Translations under genes and position numbers: made by a program | The notes under the pieces: generated by a model | Told to the model about the DNA's origin: nothing | The model's input: the letters and a program-made list of their open reading frames with translations, nothing else | The model's database searches: none | From: Prorocentrum cordatum | Taxonomy: Eukaryota | DNA: 64,000 bases | Reading direction: 5' to 3' | NCBI GenBank assembly: GCA_963575745.1 | Contig: CAUYUJ010000037.1 | Span: 1-64,000 of the forward strand | In this document: piece by piece, positions 2,897 to 42,754 of the stretch | Position numbering within the stretch: position 1 is the stretch's first letter | Layout: each line of letters opens with the position of its first letter

Positions 2897-4275
2897 TCCG
2901 CATGCCCATTTCAGCACACCCTTCAAACGCTTCGTGGCCCCATGGGGAGCTCCACCGCAAGCCCAAGTGGCTGCGTTCGCATGGCACCACCGCACCCAAT
3001 TTGGCACACCCCTCACACGCGTCGTGGCCCCATAAGGAGTTCCACCGAAGGCCCAAGTGGCTGCATTCGTACGGCGCCACCGCACTCAATTCGCCACACT
3101 CCTCACACGCTTCGTGGCCCCAAAGGGAGCCCCACCGAAGGCTCCAATAGGAGGGTTCGCATGGCGCCACCGCGCCCATGTCGGTACACCCCTCACACGC
3201 TTCGTCGCCCCATATGGAGCTCCACCGAAGGCCCAAGTGGCTGCGCTCGAATGGCACCACCGCACATAATTCTGCAAACCCCTCACACGCTTCGTGGCCC
3301 CATAGGGAGCCCCACCGAAGGCTCAAGGGGTTGCGGTCGCATGGCACCACCGCACTCAATTCGGCACGCCCCTCACACGCTTCGTGGCCCCATAGGGAGC
3401 CCCACCGAAAGCCCAAGTGGCTGCGTTCGCATGGCACCACCGCAACCATTTCGGCACGCCCCTGACACGCTTCGTGGCCCCGCAGGGAGCCCCACCGATG
3501 GCCCAAGTGACTGCGTTCGCATGGCACCACCGCACCCATGTCAGCACACCCCTCACACGTTTCGTGGCCCCACTGAAACCCACCGAAGGCCCAAGTGGTT
3601 GCGTTCGCATGGCACCACCGCACGCTTGGCGGCACCATGAGGAGCTCCACCGAAGGTGCAAGTGGCTGCATTCGTATGGCGCCACCGCACCCATTTCAGC
3701 ACGCCCCTCGAACGCTTCGTGGCCCCGTAGGGAGGTCCACCGAAGGCCCCAATGGCTGCGTTCGCACCGAAGGCTCCAGAGGGAGGGCTCGCATGGCACC
3801 ACCGCGCCCAATTCGGCACACCCCTCACACGGCTCGTGGCCCCATATGGAGCTCCACCGAAGGCTCCAGCGGGAGGGCTCGCATGGCGCCACCGCACTCA
3901 ATTTGGCACTCTCCTCACACGCTTCCTGGCCCCATAGCGAGCTCCACCGAAGGCTCCAGTGGCAGGGTTCGCATGGCGCCACCGCACTCAATTCGGCACA
4001 CTCCTCACACGCTTCGTGGCCCCAGAGGGAGGTCCACCGAACACTCGGCACACCCTCTCACACGGCTCGTGGCCCCATAGGGAGCTCCACCGAAGGCCCC
4101 AATGGCAGGATTCGCATGGCACCACCGCGCCCAATACGGCACACCCATCACACGGTTCGTGGCCGCCCGGGGGGCGCCACCCAAGGCTCCAGCGTGAAGG
4201 TTCGCATGGCGCCACCGCACCCAAGTCGGCACACCCCTCATACGGTTCGTGGCCCTATCAGGAGCTCCACCGAAA
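2897..4275 (+). repeat. ~90-bp tandem satellite, about 15 units
   Basis: Unit cgtggccccatagggagctccaccgaaggcccaagtggctgcgttcgcatggcaccaccgcacccaattcggcacacccctcacacgctt; cgtggccc recurs at ~90-bp spacing (2933, 3113, 3293, 3473). Confidence 0.95.
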
Positions 4276-10024: not shown

Positions 10025-11017
10025 GTTCTTAGTGCTGAAATTAGCTGGAATCATATTATTAGAAGTGATCGGAAAAGCGTTGGCAATACCAGTAAAATGA
10101 ACATAAAACCCGCAGTCGAATTAGCATCCGCATTGTTAGTATGATTAGAAGTACAAGCACTAAGGTTGCCATTACTCGTATTACTAGTACTGTTATCATT
10201 AGTTGTATCGTTACTTATCCTCGTCATCCTCTTCTTCCACCTCCTCCTCGTGTTCCTCTTCATCCTTCTCTTCCTCCTCCTCCTCCTTCTCCTGCTCCTC
10301 CTCCTCATCATCCTCCGCCTCCTCCTCCACCTCATCATCTTCATCCTCCTCCTCCTCATCATCCTTGTCCTCCTCCTCCTCCTCCTCCTCCTCCTCCTCC
10401 TCCCCCTCTGCCCTCCGCCCTCCGCCCTCCCCCTTCCGCCCTCACCCTCCTCCTCCTCCTCCTCCTCCTCCTCCTCCTACTCCTCCTCTCTCCTCCTCCG
10501 CTCCGCCTCGCTCTCCCTCCTTCTCATCATCCTCCTCATCTTCCGCCTCCTCATCATCCGCCTCTTCCTCCTCCTCCTCCTCCTCCTCCTCTCCTCCTCC
10601 TCCTCCTCCTTCTCACCATCATCCTCTTCCACATTATGTTACTACTCCTCCTCCTCTCCTCCTCCTCCTCTCCTCCTCCTCCTCCTCCCTCCTCCTCCTC
10701 CTCCTCCTCCTCCTCATTCCTTTCTTCCGCCTCCTCCGCCTCCTGATCCTCCACCTCATCCTCATCCTCTTCCTCCTTGTCCGTATCCCTCCTCCTCCTC
10801 TCCTCCACCTCCTCGCCTCACCTCCGCCTCCGCCTCCTCCTCCTCCTCCTCCTCCGCATCCTCCTCCTTCTCCTACTCCTCCTCCTCCTCCTCATTATCC
10901 TCCTCCTCTCCTCCTTCCTCCTCCTCCTCCTCCGCCTCCTCCTCTCCATCATCATCATCATCAACAACAACATCATCATCATCATCACCATCATCTCATC
11001 ATCATCATCATCAGCAG

Positions 11018-11054
<37 letters not shown>

Positions 11055-11071
11055 TCATCATCATCATCATC

Positions 11072-11137
<66 letters not shown>

Positions 11138-11149
11138 CATCAGCATCAG

Positions 11150-11190
<41 letters not shown>

Positions 11191-11202
11191 CCATCACCAT
11201 CA

Positions 11203-11251
<49 letters not shown>

Positions 11252-11438
11252 GTCATCATCATCGCTCATCAATCATCATCATCATCAGCATCATCAGCAT
11301 CATCAGCAGCAGCATCATCAGCAGCATCAGCATCAGCATCATCATCATCATCATCAGCATCATCAGCATCATCAGCATCATCATCACCATCATCATCAGC
11401 AGCAGCAGCAACAGCATCAGCATCATCATCATCATCAG

Positions 11439-11482
<44 letters not shown>

Positions 11483-11722
11483 CCATCATCATCGTCATCA
11501 TCATCATCCACCTCCTACTCGTCCCCCTCCTCCACCTCCTCCTCCTCCTCATCATTCCTCCTCCTCCTCCACCTCCGCCTCATCCTCCTTTCCTCCGCCT
11601 CCTTGTCTTCCTCCTCATCCTCCGCCTCCTCCTCATCCGCCTCCTCCTCCTCCGCCTCCTACTTCTCCTCCGCCCCCTCCTCCTCATCCTCCTCCGCCTC
11701 CTCATTGTTCTCCTCCTCCTCC
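8190..11722. repeat. Compound microsatellite field: (TAG)n, (CCT)n, (GTC)n, (CAT/CAG)n
   Basis: Direct inspection; ORFs here are homopolymeric artefacts. Confidence 0.95.
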
Positions 11723-11744
11723 TCCGTAGCCATTTTGGCTCAAG
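11723..11744 (+). other. Perfect 22-nt dinoflagellate spliced leader (DinoSL) in genomic DNA
   Basis: TCCGTAGCCATTTTGGCTCAAG matches the established consensus DCCGTAGCCATTTTGGCTCAAG 22/22. Confidence 0.97.
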
Positions 11745-11760
11745 CACAGGGAAGCGGCGC

Positions 11761-11785
11761 GCCGTAGCAACCTTTTGGGCTCTCG
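11761..11785 (+). other. Second, degenerate SL relic just downstream of the perfect SL
   Basis: gccgtagcaaccttttgggctctcg resembles ccgtagccattttggctcaag with small indels. Confidence 0.55.
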
Positions 11786-12007
11786 GATGTGCTAGCCGCC
11801 TCGCCTGCTCTCCGCCTCCTCGGGGCGCTTGAGGGACACCCCTACTCTGGCTCTGGTATTCTACTGGTGTGGATTCTCGGATTCAGGTTGGGTTGACTAA
11901 GGAGAGTTAAACACGTTTCCGACAGCATCGGCGTCGTTTACGCTGACATCCTCGGACGTGACAAGAACGGGACAATTTCTTCAAGTACGGCAACGGTCGC
12001 ACCCAGT

Positions 12008-12994
12008 ATGGCGGCGCATTCAATCCTGCGTCACTGGGAGATGTCGGACATTAACCCGCAGGTAGTCGAGCAGGCTGCACAACCGCTCCTCGAGTCGCTG
12101 GGCATCCCGTGCAAGAGCCGCGATATCTTTCAACTATATGAAGATCGTGAACTCTGTGCGTCATCTGCACTCGTGGTCATATCCTGCGTCTGTCCGCCAT
12201 CTCAGGGCCGCGACTACCTCGACCCCTTGATGCAGAAGTACCTCGGCTACGCAGTGGACAGGGCCGAGAGACGGCTCGTTTACGAGAATATGACATTCGA
12301 GGCTGCAGTGGGTCAACTTCCGCATGCGACGGTGATCAGTATCAGCCGACGGTCGGACAAGGTCAGAGTCAGCGGTACCCCCTCGACGATTGCCACTCTC
12401 GGCGCGATCCCAGGGTACAAGCCGCAGCAGTGCGCGGAGGCATCAGGATCGGAGGCCACGCCGCTTGTGAACGGCCGCGACCTGATTGTCAAGGTCGCCG
12501 ACAACGGACCGCTCGAAGCCTCTCACTACTTGGGGACCGACGGCATCTTCAACCTTGTCAGAGCGTGCAGCTCCGCCACCATACGCGGTTGGAAAATTCT
12601 TTTCGCAGCCGATGGCGGTGGAGGTTTAACTTACGGTTGCGGTCTCAATGTGCTCGCCACCCCTCGAGGGCGCCAAGTACCAGCAACGCCGGTGGCCACT
12701 GAGTACATGCCAGTTGTCCTTCGTACGTTGGGAGGCTCTACGGGCACCTATGCAGACTTCCACGAATACGCCAAGGACTTGAGGGTTCAACAACTCATGG
12801 ACGGGTACTTGCGCAGCGTACAGGCTGGAGGTTCTGATACAATATGGGACCAGGCAGTGGTTGCAACCAGTGTGCTTCAGCCGCACGCCAACTACAACAC
12901 GGGGATCATGTGGCTCTTCGCGACGGCAGTAAGGCCACCGCAGCCCAGCACTAGCCGCTTGGGGGGTGGACCACAAGAGCGCGAAGGCCACTAA
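12008..12994 (+). CDS. Intronless 328-aa protein of unknown function
   Basis: Uninterrupted, high-complexity, globular-looking ORF 263 nt after the SL; the frame is open from ~11897; no motif recognised. Confidence 0.7.
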   Translation: MAAHSILRHWEMSDINPQVVEQAAQPLLESLGIPCKSRDIFQLYEDRELCASSALVVISCVCPPSQGRDYLDPLMQKYLGYAVDRAERRLVYENMTFEAAVGQLPHATVISISRRSDKVRVSGTPSTIATLGAIPGYKPQQCAEASGSEATPLVNGRDLIVKVADNGPLEASHYLGTDGIFNLVRACSSATIRGWKILFAADGGGGLTYGCGLNVLATPRGRQVPATPVATEYMPVVLRTLGGSTGTYADFHEYAKDLRVQQLMDGYLRSVQAGGSDTIWDQAVVATSVLQPHANYNTGIMWLFATAVRPPQPSTSRLGGGPQEREGH

Positions 12995-14369
12995 CCACGA
13001 ACATCTCAGCTACTATAGTCGTGTGTGAATCTCTGCAGGAGGCCTCAGCTCGGCTAATATTGTGGCGATGGGGCTTTCAGTCGTTTTTCTCAGCCAATGG
13101 TGACAACCCTCTATCTCTCTGCAGTAAGGCGGTGAGCAATATCATCCTCAATCAAGTTGGGTGCTTCGGCTCTGCCCCTGGCTGCATCTCCTACGGTTCT
13201 GTTATCTCACAGCGCCGCTTGGGGAGGGTACCGACAGCAATCAGAGGGCTGCTTCCTGGAGTCGGTGGCTGCAAGTATTGGACACTGTGTGTTTCACGGG
13301 GTTCGCCTTCTACGTCATCATACCAGGCATTTTCGGGCTGTCTTTCTCCGCTATCCAGTGGGCACTCAAGTGGGGCTTGGTCAACAGCAGGTGTTGAGAG
13401 TCCGACGTCGCCGACAGGAGTTGCTATGTCCAATGTAGTTGGAGATCGGCTTTCAACGAGTATTTGGTTCTTTGCGAAGCAAAGGGCTGCAGGCGTCATC
13501 TCTTACGGTCCAGTTATCTCCCAAATCCGCCAGGGGAGTTTACAATCGGGGCTGCCGCTCACGCAGGTGGTCTTGCTTTTCTGGTGGTGGGAGCTTTCAA
13601 CTGTGCAGTGGATCAGTGCGCCATCCTCTACGGTTGTGTCCTCTCCCAATTCTGCCAAGGGAGTTTATAGTCGGGACTGGTGGTGAGTACAGCTGGTTTC
13701 CATCCCTCTGGCAATGAGAGCCGCAGATAGTCAGGTATTCAAGTCATCCGCTACCACTCTGTACATCAGTAGCGTGGGTTTATGACGGTTCAACAATCTC
13801 AACACTGGAAGAATGGGTGCAATCAGGTTGTCGGGTGCTGACTTTGTATTGTGCTTTATTCTGCAGCCATGGGGTTTCTCATTTTCTCGCGGACAGGGTG
13901 CAAGCTGCTAGTACTTCTGTCAAACTGCAGTGAAGGGCTGGGTCCAATTTTCTGCACCAACGGTCTCAATGGAAAGGATGTGCAGGGTAGTTTACGGCCT
14001 GGCACTGTACGCAGTTGTTGCTTGCAGGATGGTCAGGTGTTCTGGAACCGTTGGTGCGCACTGTTGTGGCGAAACGGCGCAAGTCCATGTTGCATCTCTC
14101 CTGCATTACGAAGGAGGGAGATCGTTTCCAGAGTTTCGGTTGGGAGGGTCTGAGGAGTCGGTCTTGCTCACGTGCGGCTCTGGCAGGGTGGGTAGCAGCA
14201 TAGCTAATGTCCGAGGAGGCGCAGATGTACGAACCATGTCATACTCGTTTGTCCAGCCAGCTTCCTGAAGGTTTTCTGGCCACGTGTTGACTCTGTGTTC
14301 GAAGTGAATGGTGCTCGCACCATCGAGGTCACATGCGCGTCTTGGCAGGGTTCCAGGTCGTCGTGGTCC

Positions 14370-15050
14370 GCCCTCCCTCCCTCCCTCCCTCCCTTACTAC
14401 TCCCTTCTCCCTGATCCCTCATCCCTCTTTCCTCCTCCCTCCTCCCTCCCCCCTCCCCCCACCTCCTCCTCCCTCCTCCCTCCTCCTGCCTCCTATTATT
14501 CCTCCCTCCTCTCTCCTCCCTCATCCTCCCTCCTCCCTCCTCCCTCATCCCTCCCTCTGCCCTCCTTCCAGCCGCAGCACGCCACTTCGCCTCCATAGCA
14601 GCAACAGGCCCCATCGAGGGAAGTCTCAGGGTGGATCTCGGCGCCCGAAGTGTGCTCTACAGGCAAAGACGCCCGTCTGAGATCGGCGGCCAAGCCGCGG
14701 CGGCCAGAGAAAGGCGCGCAAGCACCTTCTGGGAGGGCGTGATGAATCCATACGCGCCGCGCCGCTCCTTTCGCGCAGGCGGAACTCCCCGGGACGCGCC
14801 TCCTCCTCCTCCACCTCCTCCTCCTCCTCCTCCTCCTCCTCCTCCTCCTCCCCTCCTTCTCTCCTCCTTATCCTCCTCTCCTCCTCCTCCTCCTCCTCCT
14901 CCTCCTCCCTCCTCCTCCTCCTCCGCCTCTTCTTCTCCTCCTCTCCTTCTCTCCTCCTCCGCCTCTTCCTTCTGTGCCTGTTCCTGCGCCCCCTCCTCCC
15001 CCTCCTCCTCCTCCTCCTCCTCCTCCTCCTCCTCATCATCATCATCATCA

Positions 15051-15084
<34 letters not shown>

Positions 15085-15569
15085 GTCATCAGCAGCAGCA
15101 GCATCAGCATCATCAGCATCATCATCAGCAGCAGCATCATCAGCATCATGATAATCCTCATCAGCATCATCATCAGCATCAGCATCATCATCGTCATCAT
15201 CAGTATCAGCAGCAGCAGTAGCAGCATCATCATCAGCAGCATCATCAGTATTATTAGCATCATCATCATCATCATCAGCATCATCATCAGCATCATCATC
15301 AGCATCATCATCATCATCATTATCATCATCATCATCATCATCATCAACATCGTCACCATCAGTATCATCATCACCATCGTCAGCATCATCATCATCAGCA
15401 GCATTGTCATCATAATCATCAGCATCAGCATCAAAATCGTCAGCAGCATCAGCATCATCATCACCATCATCAGCAGCAGCATCATCGTCATTATCATCAT
15501 CAGCGTCAGCATCACCATCATCGACAGCATCATCAGCAGCATCATCAGCATCATCAGCATCAGCATCAG

Positions 15570-15601
<32 letters not shown>

Positions 15602-15998
15602 GCATCATCATCATCATCATCATCATCAGCATCATCATCGTCGTCGTCATCATCAGCATCAGCATCAACAGAATCATCAGCATCATCATCATCAGCAACA
15701 TCGTCAGCAGCATCATCATCATCAGCATCAGCATCAGCATCGTTATCATTGTCAGCATCATCATCAGCATCAGCAGCAGCATCATCCTAAGCATCCGCAT
15801 CATCATCGTCAGCAGCATCATCAGCATCGTCATCAACAGCAGCATCATCAGCATCATCAGCAGCAGCATCATCATCGTCGTCATCATCATCAGCAGCAGC
15901 ATCATCAGCAGTATCAGCATCATCAGCATCATCATCAGGATCAGCATCATCATCAGCAGCAGCATCATCATCAGCATCAGCATCAGCACCAGCATCAG

Positions 15999-16029
<31 letters not shown>

Positions 16030-17059
16030 AACAGCATCATCGTCAGCATCAGCATCATCATCATCAGCAGAAGCATAATCAGTATCATCATCAGCAGCAT
16101 CACCATCAGCGCATCGTCGTCGTCATCAGCATCATCATCAACAGCATCATCATCAGCATCATCAGCAGCATCGTTACCATCAGCATCATCAGCAGCCTCA
16201 GCATCAGCATCATCATCGTCAACATCATCATCAGCATCAGCATCAGCATCAGCATCAGCATCAGCATCATCATCAGCATCACCAGCATCAGCATCAGCAT
16301 CAGCATCAGCATCATCATCAGCATCAGCAGCAGCATCATCAGCAGCATCATCATCGTAGTCATCATCAGCATCATCATCAAAAGCATCAGCAGCATCATC
16401 ATCATCCTCATCCTCATCCGTAGCCTCATTATATTCCTTCTCCTCACCATCCTCCTCCTCCTCAGCTTCCTCCTCATCCTACTCCGCCTCATCCTCCTCA
16501 TCCTCCTCCTCCGCCTCCGCCACCGCCTCCGCCTCCGCATCATCATTATCACCATCAGCATCATCATCAGCATCAGCATCAGCATCATGATCATCATCCT
16601 TCTACTCATCCTCATCCTCATCCCCATCCTCATCATCATCATCATCCTCATCCTCATCCCACCCTCATCTTCACCATCTTCCGCCGCCGCCGCCGCCTCC
16701 TCCTCTTCCTCAACCTCCTCCTCCTCGTCCTCCTCCTATTCCTCCTCCTGCTGCTTCTCCTCCTCCTCCTCCACCTCCTCCTCCTCCGCCTCCTCCCCTG
16801 ATTCTCCTCCTCCTCTTCTTCTTCCTCCACCTTCTCATCTTCCTCCGCCTTCACTATCTCTTCTCCTCCTTCTCCTCCTCCTCCTCCTCCTCCTCCTCCT
16901 CTTACGGCTCCGCCTCCGCCTCCTCCGCCTGCGCCTCCTCCACCTCCTCCTCATCCTCTTCCTTCTCTTACTCCCCCTCCTCCTCCGCCTCATCATCATC
17001 ATCATCATCGTCACCATCAGTATCATCATCACCATCGTCAGCATCATCATCATCATCAG

Positions 17060-17129
<70 letters not shown>

Positions 17130-18046
17130 GGCATCATCATCATCATATGCATCATCATCATCAGCATCATCATCATCAGCAGCATCATCATCAGCATCAT
17201 CATCATTATCATCATCAGCAACAGCATTAGCATCAGCATCAGCATCATCATCAGCATCATCATAAGCAGCATCATCAGCAGCAGCATCAGCATCAGCCTC
17301 ATCACCATAACCATCATCAGCATCATCAACATCATCATCATCCTCTTCCTCATCAGCATCATCATCCGCATGGTCATCCGCATCCCCATCCGCCTCCTCC
17401 TCATCCTCGGCCTCCTCCTCCTCCGCCTCAACCTCCGTCTCCGCCGCCGCCTCCGCCTCCGCCTCCTCCGCATCCTCCTATTCCTCATCCTCCTCATCCT
17501 CCTCCTCCTCCTCCTCCTCCGCCTCCACCTCCGCCTGCGCCTCCTCCCCCTCCCCCTCCTCCTCCTCCTCCTCCTCCTCCTCCGCCTCCTCCTCCTCCTC
17601 CTCACCAGCATCATCATCATCAGCATCATCATCATCATCATCATCATCAGCATCAGCATCAGCATCAGCATCAGCATCATCATCATCAGCAGCATCATCA
17701 TCAGCATCATCATCATCAACCGCATCAGCATCATCAGCATTATCAGCATCAGCATCAGCATCAGCATCAGCATCAGCATCAGCATCAGCATCAGCATCAT
17801 CATAATCGTTCTCCGCATCAACATGAGCATCATCATCAGCATCATCAGCATCATCATAAGAAGTAGCAGCATCAACATCAGCATCAGCATCAGCAGCAGC
17901 ACCATCATTAGCATCATCAGTAGTAGCAGCATCATCAGCATCGCCATCGTCATCAGAATCGTCAGCAGCACCATCATCAGCAGGATCAGCATCATCGACA
18001 TCAGCATCAGCATCATCAGCAGCGTCATCATAATCAGCATGATCAA

Positions 18047-18096
<50 letters not shown>

Positions 18097-18178
18097 GCAT
18101 CAGCATCATCATCATCGCCAGCATCATCATCATCGGCATAGTCAGCATCAGAATCATCAGCTTCCTCAGCATAATCGG

Positions 18179-18257
<79 letters not shown>

Positions 18258-19326
18258 TGCAGCAGAATCAGCGTCAACGTAGTCAGCATCATCAGCACGA
18301 TCGGAATCATCATCAGCATCAGCAGCATCATCAGTGCCATCATCGGCATCATCATCAGCATCGTCATCTTCATCATCAGAATCGTCATCATCGTCGTCAT
18401 CAGCAGCATCGTCAACATCATCAGCAGCATCGTCAGCATCATCAAAATCAGCATCATCAGCAATAGCATCATCGTCAGCATCATCAACATCAGCATCAGC
18501 ATTATCAGCAGCAGCACCGACATCATCATCATCAGCATCATCAACATCATCAGCATCAGCATCAGCATCGTCATCATCGTCAGCATCAGCATCCTCATCA
18601 GCATCAGCATCATCGGCATCAGCAGCAGCATCATCATCATCATCATCGGCATCATCATCATCAGCATCAGCATCAACATCCGCAGCATCATCCGCGTCAG
18701 CATCATCATCACAGCACCATTACATCAGCATCACCATCCGCAGAATCACCATCGTCATGAACCTCATCATCAGCAGCAGCATCCGAACCATCAGCATCAT
18801 CATCATCATCCGCCTCCTCCTCCTCCTCCTCCTCCTCCTTCGCTTCATCATCCTCGTCCTCATCCTCCTCCTCCTCCTTCGCCTCCTACTCATCATACCC
18901 ATCCTCTTCCTCATAGTCATCCTCCTCCTCCTCCTCGTTCTCCTCCTCCCCCTCATCCTCCAACACCTCCTCCTCCCCCTCCTCATCGTCCTCCTCCTCC
19001 GCCTTCTCCTCATCATCTTCCTTCGCCTCCTCGTCCTCCTCCTCCTCGTCATCCTCACCCTCTTCCTCATACCCATCTTCATCCTCCTCCTCATCCTCAT
19101 CCTCGCCCTCCTCTTCCTCCGCCCCCTCCGCCGCCGCCGCCCCCTCCTCCCTCTCCTCCGTCTCCTCCTCCTGCTGCTCATCCTCCTCCGCTTCCTCCTC
19201 CTCCTCCTCCTCCTCGTCGGCATCATCATCGTCATCATCACCACCACCATCATCACCACTATCAACATCATCACCATCATCAGCATCATCAGAAGCATCA
19301 TCAGAATCATCATCATCATTATCAGT

Positions 19327-19363
<37 letters not shown>

Positions 19364-19391
19364 GCATCATCATCATCATCATCAGCAGCAG

Positions 19392-19423
<32 letters not shown>

Positions 19424-20522
19424 GCATCATCATCATCCTCATCATCATCATCATCATCAGCATCATCATCATCATCATCATCATCATCGTCATTAATATC
19501 ATCATCAGCATCACCATCATCAGCGTCAGCATCATCATCACCATCAGCACCAGCATCATCACCATCATCCGCAGCAGCATCATCACCCGAATCACCATCC
19601 AGCATCAGCATCATCATCAAATTCATTGGCATCATCATCAGCAGCATTAGCTTCGTCTTCGTCAGCATCAGCAGCCTCAACATCATCAACCTCACCATCA
19701 GCATCAGCAGCATGAGCATCAACAACAACATCATCATCAGAATCATCAGCATCAGCATCGCCAACAGCAGTATCATCATCATCAGCATCATCATCATCAG
19801 CATCATCATCATCAGCATCAGCAGCATCAGCATCATCAGCATCATCATCCTCATGATCCGCATCAGCATCAGCATCACCATCATTATCGCATCATCATCA
19901 TCCCACCATCAGCAGCATCAGCATCCTCATCATGATCGTCATCCACCTCCGACTGCTCCTCCTCATCCTCCTCCTCCTCCTCCTCCTCCTCCTCCCCCTC
20001 CTCCTCCTTCCCTCCCTCACGTCCTCCCTCCCTCCCGCTATTCCTCCCTCCCTCCATATCTCCACTCCATCCCTCCATCCACCTCCTCCTCCTCAACATC
20101 ATCCCCCATCCGCCTCCTCCTCCTCATCATGCTCCTCATCCGCCTCCCCCTCCGCCTCCCCCTCCTCCGCCGCCTCCTCCTACTCCGCATCCTTCCTCCT
20201 CCTCCTCCTCCTCCTCCTCCTCCTCCTCCTCCTCCTCCCTCCCTCCTCCTCCTCCTCCTCCTCCCCTCCCCTCTCTCCACCACCTCCACTTCCTCCTCCG
20301 CATTATCCTCATCCTCCTCCTGCTCATCATGTTCCTCCTCATCCTCCTCCTGCTCCTCCTCCATCTCACCCTCCTCCTCCTCCCCCTCCTCCTGCGCCTC
20401 ATCATCCTCCTCCTCCGCTTCTTCCTCCTCCTCCTCCTCCTCCTCCTCCTCCTCATCCTCCTCCTCCTCCTCCTCCTCCCCATCATCAGCATCATCATCA
20501 TCATCATCATCAGCATCATCAT

Positions 20523-20558
<36 letters not shown>

Positions 20559-20559
20559 G

Positions 20560-20604
<45 letters not shown>

Positions 20605-20731
20605 GCATCAGCATCAGCATCATCGACATCATCATCATCACCATCATCATAATCATCAGCATCAGCATCATCATCAGCATTATCATCGACATCAGCATCA
20701 GCATCGCCAACAGCAGTATCATCAGCATCAG

Positions 20732-20767
<36 letters not shown>

Positions 20768-21424
20768 TATCAACATCATCCTCAGCATGATCAGGTTCAT
20801 CATCAACATCAGCATCAGCATCCTCATCATCAGCACTATCATCATCGCCGTCGTCATCATCATCATCGTTGGCATCAACATCATCATCAGCAGCAGCAGC
20901 ATCATCACCATCATCAACAACATCATCATCGGCAAAACCATTAACAACATCATCATCATCAGCATGAGTAGCATCATCAGCCTCAGCATCGTCATCATCA
21001 TCAGAAAAATCAACATCATCAGCAGCATCAGCACCAGCATCACAAGCATCACCATCATCATCAGCAGCGTCAGCATCAGCATCGGCATCAGAATCGTCAG
21101 CCTCATCATCGTGACCAACAGCAGCATCATCGCCATCGGCATCATCATCATTACCACCTTTATCAACATCATCAGCATCATCCTCAACAGCATCATCAGC
21201 TTCATCGCCATCATCATCAGCATCAGCATTATCATTATCAACATCAGCGTCATCATCAGTAGCATAATCATCAGCAGCATACTCGTCATCATCATCAGCA
21301 TCAGTATCGTCATCGTCATCAGCATCATCAGCATCATCAGCAGCATCACCATCGTCGGCAGAATCACCAGCACCATGATCATGAGCATCATCATCATCAG
21401 CCGCATCATCTGTATCATCATTAG

Positions 21425-21480
<56 letters not shown>

Positions 21481-21654
21481 GCATCAGCATCAGCATCAGC
21501 ATCCTCATCATCAGCATCAGCATCATCCTCGTCCTCCTTCTCTCCAACCCTCCCTCCGTCCCTCCCTCACTCCCTCCTTCCATCCATCCATAAATACATC
21601 CATCCCTCTCCTCCTCCTCCTCCTCCTCCTCCTCCTCCTCCTCCTCCTCCTCCT

Positions 21655-21688
<34 letters not shown>

Positions 21689-21732
21689 CTCGTCCTCTTG
21701 CGTCTGCACATCCATCTCCACCTCCACCTCCA

Positions 21733-21763
<31 letters not shown>

Positions 21764-22654
21764 ATCCACCTGCACCACCTCCTCCTCCTCCTCCTCCGCC
21801 GCCGCCTCCTCTCCTCCTCCTCCTCGTCATCCCCTCTCCTCCTCTCACCTCCTCCCCTCCTCCTCCTCCTCCTCCTCTCCTCCTCCTCCCCTATTCCTCA
21901 TCATCAGCATCATCACCATCACCACCATCACCATCATCGCCATCATCATCATCATCAACATCATCAGCAGCAGCAGCAGCATCATCAGCATCATCATCAG
22001 CAGAATCGTCAGCATCATCAGCATCATCACCATCACCACCATCACCATCATCGCCATCATCATCATCATCAACATCATCAGCAGCAGCAGCAGCATCATC
22101 AGCATCATCATCAGCAGAATCGTCAGCATCATCAGCATCATCACCATCACCACCATCACCATCATCGCCATCATCATCATCATCAGCATCATCATCAGCA
22201 TCATCATCATAATCATCATCAGTATGACCATCATGATCAGCATCAGCATCATCATGGGCATCATCATCAGCAACAGTCTCCTCCTCATCATCATCATCAG
22301 CAGCATCAACATCATCAGCATCATTGTCAACATCGTCAGCATCATCATCAGCATCATCAGCAGCATCAGCATCAGCATCATCAGCAGCAGAATCATCATC
22401 ATCGTCATCAGCATCATCAGCAGCATCAGCATCATGGGCATCAGCATCCTCATCACCAGCATTACCATCGTCATCATCATCATCATCATCGTCAGCATGG
22501 TTATCATCATCATCACCTTCACCACAACCACCATCGTCATTAGCAGCATCATCATTATCAGCATCAGCAGCAGCATCATCAGCATCAGCATCATAACCAG
22601 AATCGCCATCGTGATCAACATCATCGTCATCATCATCAGCATCATCATCATCTG

Positions 22655-22706
<52 letters not shown>

Positions 22707-22862
22707 GTAATCAGCATCATCATCATCATCGTCCTCACCCTTATCCTCATCATCATCCTCATCAGCAGCACCATCAGCAGCATCATGTGCATCATCAGCA
22801 TCATCAGCAGCAGCATCAGAATCACCATCTTCAACAGTATCTTCATCAACGCCTCCACCATC

Positions 22863-22896
<34 letters not shown>

Positions 22897-23821
22897 TCAT
22901 CGTAATCATCAGCAGCAGCGGCAGCACCATCATCAGCATAGTCATCACCTGCATCAGCATGATCAACATCATCAACATCATCAGCATCATCAGCAGCAGC
23001 ATCAGCATCGTCTTCATCAGCATCAGCATCCTCATCATCAGCATCAGCATCATCGTCGCCAGCATCAGCATCAGCATCGGCATCATCATCGTCGTCGTCA
23101 TCAGCATCGTCAGCATCATCAACCTCATCATCATCAGTATCATCATCATCCCTCCCCCACCTCCTCTTCCTCAGCCGTCCCGCCCCCCCTCCCTCCGTCC
23201 CTCCCCCTCCTTTCCTCAATCCATCCATCCAGCCCTCCCCCCCTCAACCTCCTCCTCCTCATCAGCCCCATCCCCCTCTTCCCCCTCCTCATCATCATCA
23301 TCAGCATCAGCGTCGTCAACCTCATCATCATCAGCATCATAAGCAGCATCAGCATCATCAGCATCAGCATCATCGTCGTCGTCATCGTCATCAGCATCAT
23401 CGTCATCCTCGTCAGCATCATCATCGTCAGCATCATCATCAGCATCATCAGCAGCATCATCATCCGGATCATCATCATCAGCATCATCACAACCACCACC
23501 ACCACCGTCAGCATCATCATTATCAGCATCATCATCAGCATCATCATCATCATGAGCATCATCATCCTCATCATCCACCTCTTCCTCACCCTCCTCATCC
23601 TCATCTTCTCCAACCCTTCCTCCCTCCCTCTCTCTCTCTATCCCTCCCCCTCCCCCATCCATCCATCCATGCACCCCTCTCTTCCTCCTCCCTTCCTCCT
23701 CCTCCTCCTCCTCATCATCATCATCATCATCTTCCTCCTCCTCATACCCCTCCCCCTCCTCCTCATCCTGCTTCTCCTCCGCCTCCTCCTCCTCCTCCTC
23801 CTCTTCCTCCTCATCCTCCTC

Positions 23822-23855
<34 letters not shown>

Positions 23856-24782
23856 TCCTCCTCATCCTGCTTCTTCTCCTCCTCCCTCCTCCTCCTCCTC
23901 CTCCCTCCTCCTCCACCTCCACCTCCTTCTCCACCTCCTCTTCCTCCTTCTCCTCCTCCTCCTCCACCACCACCTCCTCCTCTTAGTATTATTTGCAGTC
24001 GCATGTTTATTATTATTCACAGTATTATCCTTAGCATGATTCGTGTAATTGTTGGTTGCGTAGTGTTCATATTAGTAGTTGTACTCCTATTCTTCTTCAT
24101 ATGGGTTATTACTATTAATTAGTCTTCTTCCTCCTCTCCTCATCATCAGCAGCAGCATCAGCATCGTCATCATCAGCAGCACCATCCATCATCATGGGCA
24201 TACATCATCAGAATCACCATCAACAGCATAAGCATCACCGTCATCATCAGCATCAGCATCAAAATCCGCATCACCACCATCAGCAACCGCGTCATCATCA
24301 ACATCAGCATCATCATCACCATCACCACCATCATCAGCATCATCATCACAAGCATCATCACAATCACCACCATCAGCATCCGAATTATCGTCACCATCGT
24401 CATCATTAGCATCACCACCACCAGCATCATCATAATCATCATCAGCAGCATCATCTACAGCATCATCATACGCAGCATCATCAGCATCAGCATCATCAGC
24501 CGCATCAACATCATCATCATCATCGTCAAAATCCTAATCAGCATCATCATCATCAGCAGCATCAGCATCATCATCATCGTTATCATCATTATCAGCAGCC
24601 AGCAGCATCAGCAGCAGCATCAGCATCAGCATCAGCCTGGGCATCATCATCAGCAGCATCAGCAGCGTCATCATCACCATCATCATCGTCACCTCCGCCA
24701 ACACCATCACCATGACCATCATCATCGTCATCGTCATCAGCATCATCATCAGCATCAGCATCAGCACCATCATCAGCATCAC

Positions 24783-24817
<35 letters not shown>

Positions 24818-25297
24818 CCATCATCACCCTCATCAGCATCATCAGCATTATCAGCAACATCAGCAGTATCAGCATCAGCATCATCAGCATCATCAGCATC
24901 ATCAGCATCATCAGCATCAGCATCAGCATCACCATTACCATCACCACCATCATCATCCACCTCCTCCTAATCCTCCATCCATCCTTCCCTCCCTCCATCC
25001 ATCCATCCATTCATCCCTCTCCTCCTCCACCTCCTCCTCCTCCAGATCCTCCTGCTCCTCATCATCATCATCGTCAATATCATCATCTTCATCAGCATCA
25101 TCATCATCATCAGCAGCAGCATCATCATCATCATCATAATCCACCTCCCCCTCCTCCTCAGCATCATCCTCATCCTCCTCCTCCTCCTCCTCTGTCCCTC
25201 CCTCCCTCCCTCCATCCATCCATCCGTCCATCCATCCATCAATCCATCCATCCCTCTCCTGAACCTCCTCCTCCACCTCCTCCTCCTCCTCCTCCCC
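14370..25297. repeat. ~11-kb compound (CAT/CAG)n-(CCT)n microsatellite field with a small unique island at ~14570-14800
   Basis: Direct inspection. Confidence 0.97.
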
Positions 25298-41066: not shown

Positions 41067-42415
41067 GAGGGCCACGAAACGTGCGCTGGGTATGCCAAAA
41101 TGGGTGCGGTGGGCCACAGAACAAGTGAGGGGGGTGCCAAAACAGGTGCGTTGGGCGCATGCGAACGCAACTACTGGGGCCGTCGGTGGAGCTCCCTATG
41201 GAGCCACGAAACGTGTGAGGGAGGGGTGTACCAAACCGGTGCGGTGGGCGCGTGCGAACGCAGCCGGTGAGGCCATCAGTAGAGCTCCCTATGGGGCCAC
41301 GAAACGTGTGAAGGTGTGCCAGAGTGGGCGCGGTCGGCACATGCGAACGCAGCCACTGGGTCTGTCGGTGGAGTTCCCTATGGTGCCACGAAACGTGAGA
41401 GGGGTGTGCAAACAGAGTCGCGCTGGGCGCAAGCGAACGCAGCCACCGGGGCCGTCGGTGGGGCTCCCTACGGGGCCACGAAACGTGTGCGGGTGTGCCA
41501 ACATGTGTGCGGTGGGCGCATGCGAACGCAGCTACTGGCGCGTTCGGTGGAGGTCCTATGGGGCCACCAAACGTGCGCGGGGTGTGCCAAAATGTGGCGG
41601 TGGGCGCAGACAAACGCAGCCACCGCGGCCGTCGGTGGAAATCCCTGCGGGGCCGCGATACGCGTGAAAGAAATACAAAAATTGGCGCGGTGGGCGCATG
41701 CGAACGCAGCCGCTGGGGCCGTCGGTGGAGCTCCCTGTGGGGCCACGAAACGTGCGCTGAGTGTGCCAAAAGGGCGCGGTGGGCGCATGCGAACGCAGCT
41801 ACTAGAGCCGTCGGTAGAGCTCCCTAAAAAGCCACGGAACAAGTGCGGGGTGTGCCAAAAATGCGCGCAATGGGCGCATGCGAATGCACCCAGCGGGGCC
41901 GTGTGTGGAGCTCCCTGTGGAGCCGCGAAACGAGTGAGGGTGTGTCAATATGGGTGCGGTAAGCGCAGGCGAAGGCTTGCATGTGGACCTTCGGTGGAGC
42001 TCCCTATGGGTCCACGAAATGCGTCAGCGGTGGACCTAAATGGGTGCGGTGGTCGCATGCGAACGCAGCCACCGGGATCTCTCTGGGGCCACGAAACGTG
42101 TGCGAAGTGCCAAGAAAGGGCGCGGTGGGCGCATGCGAACGCAGCCACTGGGGCGATCGGTGGAGCCCCCTATGGCGCCGCGAAACGTGCGAGGGAGGGG
42201 TGTACCAGAATGGGCGCGGTGGGCGCATGCGAACGCAGCCACCGCGGCCGTCGGTGGAGATCCTTATGGCCACGTAGCGTAGCGTGCGAGAGGTGGGCCG
42301 ATATCGGCGCGGTGGGCGCATGCAATCGCAACCACTGGGGCCGTCGGCGGAGTTCACCGTGGAGCCGCGAAACTTGCGAGGGAGGGGTGTACCAGAACCG
42401 GCGCCGTGGGCGCAG
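41067..42415 (-). repeat. ~90-bp satellite, same family as 2897-4275, opposite orientation
   Basis: Unit ggggccacgaaacgtgtgagg..gcggtgggcgcatgcgaacgcagccactggggccgtcggtggagctccctat is the reverse complement of the first array's unit. Confidence 0.95.
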
Positions 42416-42457
42416 GCGAGGCTGGGGGCCCAGAGTCACTTTCTCAACCCCGTTGCA

Positions 42458-42479
42458 TCCGTAGCCGTTTTGACTCCAA
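42458..42479 (+). other. Relic spliced leader
   Basis: tccgtagccgttttgactccaa, 18/22 to SL; gccATGg about 80 nt downstream. Confidence 0.7.
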
Positions 42480-42754
42480 TGTCGCGCTGTCAGAGCGCGA
42501 CAAAGCGTCATTCCCAGCAAAGCAGCGCAGGCGCGATGCAGTCAGGAATCTCCGGGCCATGGCGGGCGAGGTCGCGGTGGAGATTGGCAGATGCAAAGTG
42601 GCTACGCCCCGCAGCGTGGATGAGAGGATCCGCGGGGCGGGGCGGGCCCCGGTCGCTTTTCGGCCGCTTCTCAACGCGCGCCGATTCCATATTCTCTGGT
42701 CTGAACACCACAGGAAGGAGCTCCCTCCTACATGTAGAGCCAAAGAAACATACC

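What the first reader, a model, noticed from the sequence alone, without database searches (positions are those of the whole stretch)
11723..14369. Young SL-capped intronless insert carrying an intact 328-aa orphan ORF
Seen: a 22/22 DinoSL abuts a (CCT)n tract (sharing tcc microhomology) and is followed by a second decayed SL, then the only long, complex, unbroken ORF in the window outside the LINE RT. About 1.4 kb of complex sequence follows before microsatellite resumes. Established: DinoSL is added to mRNA by trans-splicing, so a genomic copy ahead of an intronless ORF marks reverse-transcribed mRNA, and tandem relics imply repeated cycles. Inference: a recently mobile unit encoding an unrecognised protein, with no RT of its own here. 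It could be a non-autonomous SL-capped retroelement, the ORF1 half of a truncated LINE, or an endogenised viral gene.
Basis: partly seen in the sequence, partly recalled or inferred. Interest (0 to 1): 0.8.

Follow-up and report, generated by a model that had tools for sequence, protein, structure and literature searches.

The report
Ordinary spliced-leader-tagged dinoflagellate retrogene
This is a reverse-transcribed copy of a dinoflagellate messenger RNA that still carries its spliced-leader tag, a common and well-described kind of gene copy, and its protein belongs to a conserved but unnamed family rather than being an orphan.

Summary
The sequence facts hold. A perfect 22-nt DinoSL sits at 11723-11744, directly against a (TCC)n tract. 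A decayed second SL lies at 11762-11782. An intact 328-codon ORF runs 12008-12994, followed by about 1.37 kb of complex sequence before C/T-rich repeats resume.

The ORF is not an orphan:
- It is 298/298 identical to a public Prorocentrum cordatum gene model.
- That species has a roughly 98% paralogue and a 34% deep paralogue.
- 62 cluster representatives match it in a 1.84-billion-protein library.
- A 42% relative on a metagenome contig also sits behind a decayed DinoSL.

No viral relative, no reverse transcriptase and no informative fused form was found.

The best reading (0.8) is an ordinary DinoSL-tagged retrogene that went through two rounds of retroposition. This is a known phenomenon; about 22-23% of genes in two Symbiodinium genomes are retrogenes.

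Two family members fold confidently into a Rossmann-like alpha/beta protein. It resembles solved methyltransferases only weakly (Z 6.4 or less), so the function stays open.

Not found or not testable here: poly(A), a target-site duplication, the parent gene, expression of this copy, and independent support for the SL/CCT junction. No assembly is held.

Interest is low.

The parts
11507..11722 (+). Upstream (TCC)n/(CCT)n tract into which the copy is inserted; 90% pyrimidine on the sense strand
   Evidence: TRF row 11507-11725, period 3; pyrimidine fraction 0.898
11723..11744 (+). Complete DinoSL (22/22), the 5' end of the retroposed mRNA. Bases 11723-11725 (TCC) are shared with the tract.
   Evidence: Exact and unique in the window, 0 expected; sequence read; DinoSL consensus from the passage in PMC6050394
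11745..11761 (+). 17-nt spacer between the two SLs. Inferred to be the genomic flank of the parent locus, downstream of the AG acceptor used in the second cycle.
   Evidence: Sequence; inference
11762..11782 (+). Older, decayed DinoSL relic
   Evidence: 17 matches, 1 mismatch, 3 gap columns; 4 of 2000 shuffles reach the score
11783..12007 (+). Rest of the 5' UTR. ACG at 11987-11989 stands where other copies have ATG: T at 11988 in 4 contigs of X1 and 2 of X3, and paralogue P0001 starts MATVAPSM.
12008..12994 (+). Intact 328-aa ORF of an unnamed conserved family of about 320 aa. It carries all 26 invariant or nearly invariant residues of the 21-member alignment.
   Evidence: model pLDDT 86.7
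12995..14361 (+). 3' region, presumed 3' UTR; its end is undefined. It holds three roughly 62-nt direct repeats (13181-13242, 13493-13554, 13618-13679). One stretch, 13965-14237, has very high contig depth in run X3. There is no A-run and no AAAA[G/C].
   Evidence: The region is shared with other copies: X1 pieces cover 13050-14103, and P0001 and P0100 read 13226-13397.
14362..14560 (+). Downstream C/T-rich (CCCT/CCT) tract; 92% pyrimidine

Best explanation
The stretch 11723 to about 14361 is an ordinary DinoSL-tagged retrogene of Prorocentrum cordatum. It is a processed, SL-capped mRNA of a conserved cellular gene family, reverse-transcribed by enzymes supplied in trans and integrated into a (CCT)n tract inside a CAT/CCT microsatellite field.

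The parent was itself a retrogene. Its full-length SL is now the decayed relic at 11762-11782. It was transcribed from upstream and received a new SL at an AG 17 nt ahead of the old one, and that mRNA gave the present copy. That makes two cycles.

Shown:
- a perfect SL exactly at the repeat boundary;
- the relic;
- an intact ORF collinear with its family.

Inferred:
- the source of the reverse transcriptase (LINE-like);
- joining at TCC microhomology;
- possible expression of the new copy by read-through plus trans-splicing at the AG inside the retained SL (CCGTAG|CC) behind the 90% pyrimidine tract, or from the SL's TTTT(G) motif as proposed by Song et al.

The protein is a stand-alone, probably soluble Rossmann-like alpha/beta protein of about 320 aa with unknown activity. 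My best guess, at about 0.15, is a cofactor- or nucleotide-binding enzyme descended from a class-I methyltransferase-like fold.
For: SL anatomy:
- The SL core is exact, unique in the window and not expected by chance.
- It abuts the TCC array.
- The relic lies 17 nt downstream on the same strand.

The ORF belongs to a real family:
- 62 cluster representatives match at E<=1e-3 and 19 at E<=1e-30, mostly 300-370 aa, collinear from residue ~5 to ~308.
- Two members fold with pLDDT 86.7 and 89.0.
- P0100 (CAK0788342.1, P. cordatum) is 298/298 identical.
- P0001 (CAK0827611.1) differs at about 6 of 256 aligned residues.
- P0020 (CAK0870340.1) is a 34% paralogue that falls in a sister clade with P0009 (100/98), while the window groups with P0004 and P0005 (99/95).

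Retroposition recurs in the family. L001 is a JGI metagenome contig encoding a protein 42% identical to the window ORF and differing from P0002 at two residues by eye. It has a decayed DinoSL at 609-630, 52 nt before its ATG; 0 of 2000 shuffles reach that score.

The phenomenon is common:
- Two further SL relics lie in this same window.
- Passages read: retrogenes are 22-23% of genes in two Symbiodinium genomes (PMC6050394); 477 retrogenes were reported in P. minimum transcripts (PMC12014239 section 3.1); LINEs are the presumed RT source (PMC5585692).

No copy of the unit lies elsewhere in the 64-kb window.
Against: - There is no poly(A) remnant: no A/T run of >=6 in 11000-15200, and no AAAA[G/C] in 12995-14420.
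- No target-site duplication can be read in the repeat.
- The 3' end is undefined.
- The parent gene was not found, because no assembly is held.
- The second relic is separated from the SL by 17 nt. This is not the directly abutting truncated DinoRL seen in 95% of transcript-defined retrogenes (PMC12014239 section 3.1).
- Differences from other copies look nearly neutral. 6 of the 17 listed ORF differences are synonymous against 24% expected (P=0.22). The listed X1 pieces differ by 2.7% in the ORF and 4.1% in the 3' part. This copy may therefore be an intact but unconstrained retrocopy.
- The public gene models put an intron at about 12934-13246 and a hydrophobic tail exon after it.
Confidence: 0.8

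Rival explanations
1. DNA-level (segmental) duplicate of an older SL-tagged retrogene, not a fresh retroposition. The SL would have been inherited with the duplicated block, and the microsatellites expanded around it later.
For: No poly(A), no AAAA[G/C] and no target-site duplication. Several near-identical copies exist. A perfect 22-mer is not strong evidence of youth.
Against: The unique sequence begins exactly at SL base 1-4, with nothing of another flank in front of it. In run X1 the other copies are covered only from about 11872 onward; the bin 11781-11871 has depth 0.08. This hints that their 5' ends differ.
Confidence: 0.1
2. Non-autonomous SL-capped retroelement: a unit selected for its own mobility that exploits LINE enzymes, with the ORF serving transposition.
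For: Two cycles of retroposition. Multiple variant copies appear in runs X1 and X3, with up to 17 contigs at one position in the 3' part. Divergence among copies is near neutral. A relative in another organism is also SL-tagged.
Against: All of this is equally expected for any expressed dinoflagellate gene (PMC6050394 passages). The family is old and diversified at 25-45% identity, with conserved motifs and two deep paralogue lineages in one species. The fold is enzyme-like, not nucleic-acid-chaperone-like. No shared ends could be shown.
Confidence: 0.05
3. Endogenised viral gene that was later expressed and retroposed.
For: The family has no Pfam match and no named relative. Among NCBI-named records it appears only in P. 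cordatum.
Against: In IMG/VR, 15 pattern matches were found and 0 were confirmed as relatives. BFVD gave no match at E<=1e-3. Relatives sit as single ORFs on contigs of 0.5-4.3 kb. L001 shows one in a repeat-rich, SL-tagged context typical of eukaryotes.
Confidence: 0.03
4. ORF1 half of a 5'-intact, 3'-truncated LINE.
For: It is a single ORF with no RT, followed by 1.4 kb of non-coding-looking sequence.
Against: A LINE transcript need not carry a trans-spliced SL plus an older relic. The 'longer' search found one protein only, P0109, whose extra part is upstream and joined through a low-complexity CT-repeat translation. No RT family was found in 188 frames of the window.
Confidence: 0.02

Closest known systems
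DinoSL-tagged retrogenes of dinoflagellates ('recycled processed cDNAs'; Slamovits & Keeling 2008 as cited in PMC6050394; Song et al. 2017, PMC5585692; Haro et al. 2025, PMC12014239)
   Same: A genomic DinoSL lies on the coding strand ahead of the start codon, a second more decayed relic lies downstream of it, and the ORF is collinear with its family. No RT of its own is present.
   Different: The relic is a full-length decayed SL set 17 nt behind the new SL. The commoner form is a truncated DinoRL (CCATTTTGGCTCAAG) abutting the SL directly. The 5' UTR is long: 263 nt lie between the SL and the ATG at 12008. No parent lies in the window, that is within 11.7 kb upstream or 49.6 kb downstream. 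By contrast, most Symbiodinium retrogenes were reported within 10 kb of their parents (PMC5585692 passage).
LINE-1-mediated processed retrocopies of mammals
   Same: An mRNA is copied by trans-acting RT, introns are lost, and microhomology at the 5' junction is possible.
   Different: No poly(A) tail and no target-site duplication are visible. The 5' end is marked by a trans-spliced leader.
Beta-class N6-adenine/N4-cytosine DNA methyltransferases (Pfam PF01555; e.g. 1g60 M.MboIIA, 1boo M.PvuII, 8urk M.BceJIV, 8s9m N4CMT)
   Same: These are the best structural neighbours. The top 13 rows of the second-look search all belong to this group, at Z 5.4-6.1 with 123-158 residues aligned over model residues ~30-216. 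A strand-CPP motif lies early in the chain and a strand plus Gly-rich loop lies late, which is the order of motifs IV and I in this class (motif order recalled, not tested at residue level).
   Different: There is no sequence match: 0 of 21 members hit any methyltransferase Pfam family at E<=1. All Z values are under 8, which the tool calls common for unrelated folds. A second member gave no better (Z<=5.9, with a Mur-ligase C-domain on top). The residue after PP is never aromatic.

Membership tests
Dinoflagellate DinoSL-tagged retrogene | DinoSL or a relic in genomic DNA upstream of the start codon on the coding strand | tested here: met
   22/22 at 11723-11744; ORF on the same strand from 12008
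Dinoflagellate DinoSL-tagged retrogene | More SL relics than the parent, with the number of relics equal to the number of cycles | tested here: inconclusive
   A second relic is present, but no parent could be sought because no assembly is held
Dinoflagellate DinoSL-tagged retrogene | Coding region free of parental introns | tested here: inconclusive
   The ORF is collinear with 20 relatives from start to the MWxFA motif. The public models P0100 and P0001 insert differing 3' introns. There is no RNA evidence.
Processed retrocopy made by target-primed reverse transcription | 3' poly(A) and flanking target-site duplication | tested here: not met
   No A/T run of >=6 and no AAAA[G/C]. A TSD is unreadable in the CCT repeat. 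Genomic poly(A) sites in dinoflagellates are only 3-5 A (PMC2488372 passage), so this weighs little.
SL RNA (donor) gene | The SL exon is followed directly by a GT splice donor and a short intron (recalled from Zhang et al. 2007, not read here) | tested here: not met
   The SL is followed by CACAGG
LINE ORF1 | Lies upstream of an EN/RT ORF2 in full-length copies | tested here: inconclusive
   No RT family in 188 frames of the window. The only longer relative is P0109, which has no RT. Full-length copies elsewhere in the genome could not be sought.
Beta-class amino-methyltransferase (PF01555) | Match to the family profile | tested here: not met
   0 of 21 members at E<=1; the window protein has 0 Pfam families
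Beta-class amino-methyltransferase (PF01555) | Catalytic motif IV, (D/N/S)-P-P-(Y/F/W) (recalled) | tested here: not met
   The family has C/Y/W/Q/A-P-P followed by S, M, C, T, V, I, E or A. None of the aligned members has an aromatic residue there.
Beta-class amino-methyltransferase (PF01555) | Shared fold | tested here: inconclusive
   Z 4.9-6.1 in three VIA searches. Foldseek found no hit at E<=1e-3.
Endogenous viral element | A relative encoded by a virus | tested here: inconclusive
   IMG/VR: 0 of 15 candidate stretches confirmed. BFVD best E 4.7e-3 with TM 0.23.

The most novel reading that the evidence does not exclude
The unnamed 320-aa family could be a dinoflagellate-restricted, catalytically re-tooled descendant of beta-class DNA amino-methyltransferases. 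Motif IV would have changed to C-P-P-x and motif I to a G-x-x-D-G-S-L loop. The family would be kept in several old paralogue lineages and repeatedly amplified by SL-mediated retroposition. On this reading it is a candidate nucleic-acid-modifying or nucleic-acid-binding protein of the dinokaryon, not just a 'dark' gene.
Probability: 0.12. Interest if true: 0.45.

Novelty: new member of a known kind. Interest (0 to 1): 0.2.

Why it matters
The practical value is in lowering the finding's rank. A perfect genomic DinoSL ahead of an ORF is the expected signature of ordinary gene retroposition in dinoflagellates, not of a new mobile element, and the ORF is already in the public annotation.

Two things remain mildly useful. 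First, this is a clean two-cycle example in which the older relic kept its full 5' end plus 17 nt of the parent's flank. That flank gives a search key for the parent locus. Second, it points to a conserved, confidently folding family of about 320 aa with no Pfam model and no clear structural relative, which is a reasonable target for biochemical characterisation.

Tried and rejected
- Whole-genome copy census: impossible, as no assembly is held.
- Pfam profile search via the genome search on L001: the locus is not in a held genome, so it was dropped.
- Sequencing runs: no listed holder is on record as RNA. The best holder has 0.33 of the words.
- Laying four runs of contigs: no listed piece spans the whole stretch or bridges the SL/CCT junction. 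Contigs that hold the SL run on into unrelated sequence after 11744/11745, as other SL-bearing molecules would.
- Joints: none corresponding to the annotated intron (about 12934-13246) is among the 9 listed. Contigs cannot show absence.
- An apparent stop in other copies (12780 T>A gives TAG) was rejected. P0001 and P0017 read Tyr there, which needs a second change that the truncated table may not list.
- Sequence and profile searches:
  - PHROGs: one hit at E 0.17.
  - PDB by sequence: best E 0.59.
  - PDB by profile: best E 1.1.
  - ESM Atlas: top scores 0.89, below the 0.9 lead level, pointing at pesticin/lysozyme-like clusters that nothing else supports.
  - Rfam on 11400-14900: only sub-threshold snoRNA-like hits on the CAT repeat.
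- UniRef's name 'Subtilisin' for P0100 has no support from Pfam or the fold searches.
- The first 200 residues of P0109 gave no PDB hit, and the whole protein gave no Pfam hit better than E 0.05.
- Window against L001 by blastn: only the conserved C-terminal coding motif matches.
- Earlier-findings look-ups returned nothing.
- A paper search for the four accession numbers returned 0 papers.
- The idea that the pyrimidine tract serves as a trans-splicing signal has no support in the one paper checked. 'Pyrimidine' occurs 0 times in PMC2488372, which states that no simple acceptor consensus exists. It stays an analogy.
Full report
**What is there.** Reading 11000-15200 shows, in order:
- a (CAT)n field;
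- a (TCC)n array (TRF 11507-11725);
- TCCGTAGCCATTTTGGCTCAAG at 11723-11744;
- a 17-nt spacer;
- a degenerate SL-like stretch at 11762-11782;
- about 225 nt of further leader;
- an ATG-initiated ORF at 12008-12994 (328 aa);
- 1.37 kb of complex sequence;
- from about 14362, C/T-rich repeats.

The 21-nt SL core is exact, is the only match in the window even at 3 mismatches, and is never seen in 100 shuffles. T is an allowed first base, since the consensus is DCCGUAGCCAUUUUGGCUCAAG with D = U, A or G (passage in PMC6050394).

The second SL aligns with 17 matches, 1 mismatch and 3 gap columns. 4 of 2000 shuffles of the 263-nt leader reach that score. Similar scores occur at about seven other places in the whole window, so its weight comes from its position and strand.

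**The organism and the annotation.** The ORF's best named relatives are Prorocentrum cordatum proteins.
- P0100 (CAK0788342.1) is 298/298 identical to residues 12-309. It then continues with the translation of window 13248-13397. This locus, or an identical one, is therefore already a public gene model with a predicted intron at about 12934-13246.
- P0001 (CAK0827611.1) is a paralogue with about 6 differences in 256 aligned residues. It has a frameshift-like gap bridged by a model intron, and a different 3' splice choice.

Two near-identical paralogues are given different splice sites. In addition, the aligned relatives end soon after the MWxFA motif with no conserved extension. I therefore read these introns as prediction artefacts. 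This is an inference, and RNA reads are needed to settle it.

**The ORF is not an orphan.**
- phmmer against 1.84 billion cluster representatives gave 62 hits at E<=1e-3, 33 at E<=1e-10 and 19 at E<=1e-30. The full-length ones are 296-370 aa and match from about residue 5 to about residue 308.
- A 21-member alignment has 2 invariant and 24 nearly invariant columns. The window protein carries the conserved residue in all of them.
- Sources are ENA contigs of 0.5-4.3 kb, three P. cordatum records and three EukProt records.
- In a maximum-likelihood tree of 24 members, the window protein groups with P0004 and P0005 (99/95). The other P. cordatum member, P0020, groups with P0009 (100/98) in the sister clade. 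The family therefore has old paralogue lineages.
- A search for longer forms found only P0109 (617 aa). Its extra N-terminal part is joined through a low-complexity translation that looks like a CT-rich repeat, and it matches nothing in Pfam or the PDB.

**Retroposition recurs in the family.** The one DNA locus I could fetch is L001, a 3120-nt JGI metagenome contig. It encodes a protein 42% identical to the window ORF, differing from P0002 at two residues by eye. The ORF is uninterrupted at 683-1645. A decayed DinoSL lies at 609-630, and 0 of 2000 shuffles reach its score. Microsatellites lie on both sides. This also shows that at least this branch of the unnamed relatives is dinoflagellate.

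**How common the signature is.**
- The same window holds another decayed SL at 42459-42480 (+), ahead of an ATG at 42537. It also holds an SL 3' half at 53420-53406 (-), ahead of ATGs.
- Passages read state that retrogenes make up 22.3% and 23.2% of genes in two Symbiodinium genomes. They also state that multiple DinoSLs record multiple retropositions (PMC6050394).
- 6544 retrogenes were found in 37 of 43 species' transcriptomes, 477 of them in P. minimum. 5% carried two or more relics (PMC12014239 section 3.1).
- LINEs are the presumed source of EN/RT (PMC5585692).
- The P. cordatum genome paper reports dinoSL on transcripts of 20.1% of 85,849 gene models (PMC10666404 passage).

**Other copies and selection.** No assembly is held, so I used one run search and one lay of contigs.
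- No run holds more than 0.33 of the sampled words, and none is on record as RNA.
- The eight listed contig pieces of run X1 (of 895 laid, by the depth table mostly on the CCT tract and the SL) cover 12002-14103. They differ at 28 of 1048 bases (2.7%) in the ORF and 43 of 1045 bases (4.1%) in the 3' part.
- Of 386 differences, the table listed 40. Of these, 17 fall in the ORF: 6 synonymous and 11 not, against 24% synonymous expected at random (P=0.22). The recent copies thus look close to neutral, while the family as a whole is clearly conserved.
- All contigs covering 11988 (4 in X1, 2 in X3) have T there. This makes ATG where the window has ACG, and P0001 indeed starts seven codons earlier. 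The window copy has therefore lost the upstream start but keeps the next in-frame ATG.
- The EukProt fragments P0006 and P0017 are 96% and 95% identical to the window protein. Their data set carries a green-alga label, which I take to be a labelling or contamination problem. I recall that set as a transcriptome, but the call does not say so.

**What is missing for a textbook retrocopy.**
- There is no A/T run of 6 or more anywhere in 11000-15200.
- There is no AAAA[G/C] in the 3' part.
- No target-site duplication is readable in the repeat.
- In dinoflagellates, genomic poly(A) sites are only 3-5 A (PMC2488372 passage), so this weighs little. It does leave the 3' boundary open, and it keeps DNA-level duplication of an older retrogene alive as a rival (0.1).
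- The insert has no similarity to the rest of the window. No parent therefore lies within 11.7 kb upstream or 49.6 kb downstream.
- A perfect 22-mer is weak evidence of youth. Its probability is 0.55 at 2.7% divergence and 0.19 at 7.3%.

**The protein.**
- Pfam finds nothing for the window protein or for any of 21 members at informative levels.
- PDB sequence and profile searches find nothing.
- AlphaFold2 with the family alignment gives pLDDT 86.7 and pTM 0.86 for the window protein, and 89.0 and 0.87 for P0008. The fold is an alpha/beta sandwich over residues ~5-230 plus a helical C-terminal part.
- Foldseek finds no PDB or BFVD match at E<=1e-3.
- VIA-align gives a best Z of 6.4 for the window model and 5.9 for P0008.
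- In the second look, the top 13 rows are all beta-class or type III N6/N4 DNA methyltransferases, at Z 5.4-6.1 over model residues ~30-216.
- The tool notes that Z under 8 is common for unrelated pairs. Mur-ligase C-domains score equally well.
- The family's C-P-P motif (62-64, after strand 54-59) and Gly-rich loop (199-207, after strand 196-200) stand in the order of motifs IV and I of that class. That order is recalled, and the register was not checked residue by residue. The aromatic residue of motif IV is absent in every member.
- I therefore file the methyltransferase link as a lead, not a membership.

**Rivals.**
- An SL RNA gene is excluded, because the SL is followed by CACAGG rather than a GT donor (the defining feature is recalled).
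- A viral origin has no support: IMG/VR confirmed 0 of 15 candidates and BFVD gave nothing.
- LINE ORF1 has no support: no RT family in 188 frames of the window, subject to my length and complexity filters, and no fused form.
- A selfish SL-capped element cannot be excluded without a copy census. Everything cited for it is equally expected of an expressed dinoflagellate gene.

**Verdict.** The retroposition inference is right and already textbook for this lineage. The 'orphan' and 'novel mobile unit' readings are not supported. Interest is 0.2.

Noticed in passing
window 42459-42480 (+): A second decayed DinoSL (about 18 of 22; alignment score 31, higher than the relic at 11762) lies about 55 nt ahead of an ATG at 42537. 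It is probably another retrogene.
   Followed up: partly
window 53420-53406 (-): An SL 3'-half-like CCTTTCTGGCTCAAG (13 of 15 against CCATTTTGGCTCAAG) sits on the minus strand, followed within about 50 nt by ATG codons. It may be a truncated relic of a third retrogene.
   Followed up: partly
window 2905-4274 and 41111-42419: Two arrays of a roughly 90-nt satellite whose consensus units look like reverse complements of each other. This would be the same repeat family in opposite orientation about 37 kb apart. Judged by eye from the TRF consensus.
   Followed up: no
window 15033-25141: One (TCA)n/(CAT)n microsatellite field of about 10 kb (3353 copies, 72% matches). The whole first 25 kb of the window is dominated by CAT, CCT, TAC and GTA trinucleotide arrays with strong negative GC skew.
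   Followed up: no
window 13965-14237: Contig depth in run X3 jumps to 500-1300, against 20-120 over the rest of the unit. This suggests a short repeated segment embedded in the 3' region.
   Followed up: no
window 13181-13242, 13493-13554, 13618-13679: Three direct repeats of about 62 nt (66-76% identity to the reference copy) lie inside the 3' region. Their meaning is unknown.
   Followed up: no
proteins P0006, P0017, P0021 (EukProt EP00959): Fragments 95-96% identical to this Prorocentrum gene, plus a member of a second family lineage, are filed under a Pyramimonas (green alga) label. Contamination or mislabelling of that data set is the likely cause, not gene transfer.
   Followed up: partly
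protein P0100 (UniRef100_A0ABN9PAX1): UniRef names this gene model 'Subtilisin'. Neither Pfam nor the fold searches give any support for that name.
   Followed up: yes
protein P0109 (ENA, 617 aa): A family member is read through from an upstream part of about 200 aa of unknown family. The linker looks like a translated CT-rich microsatellite. So a pyrimidine-rich repeat lies just upstream of the gene here too, as in the window.
   Followed up: partly
No RT Pfam family matched in 104 frames of >=150 aa or 84 frames of 90-149 aa that passed my complexity filter. A broken or low-complexity-embedded RT could have been missed.
   Followed up: partly
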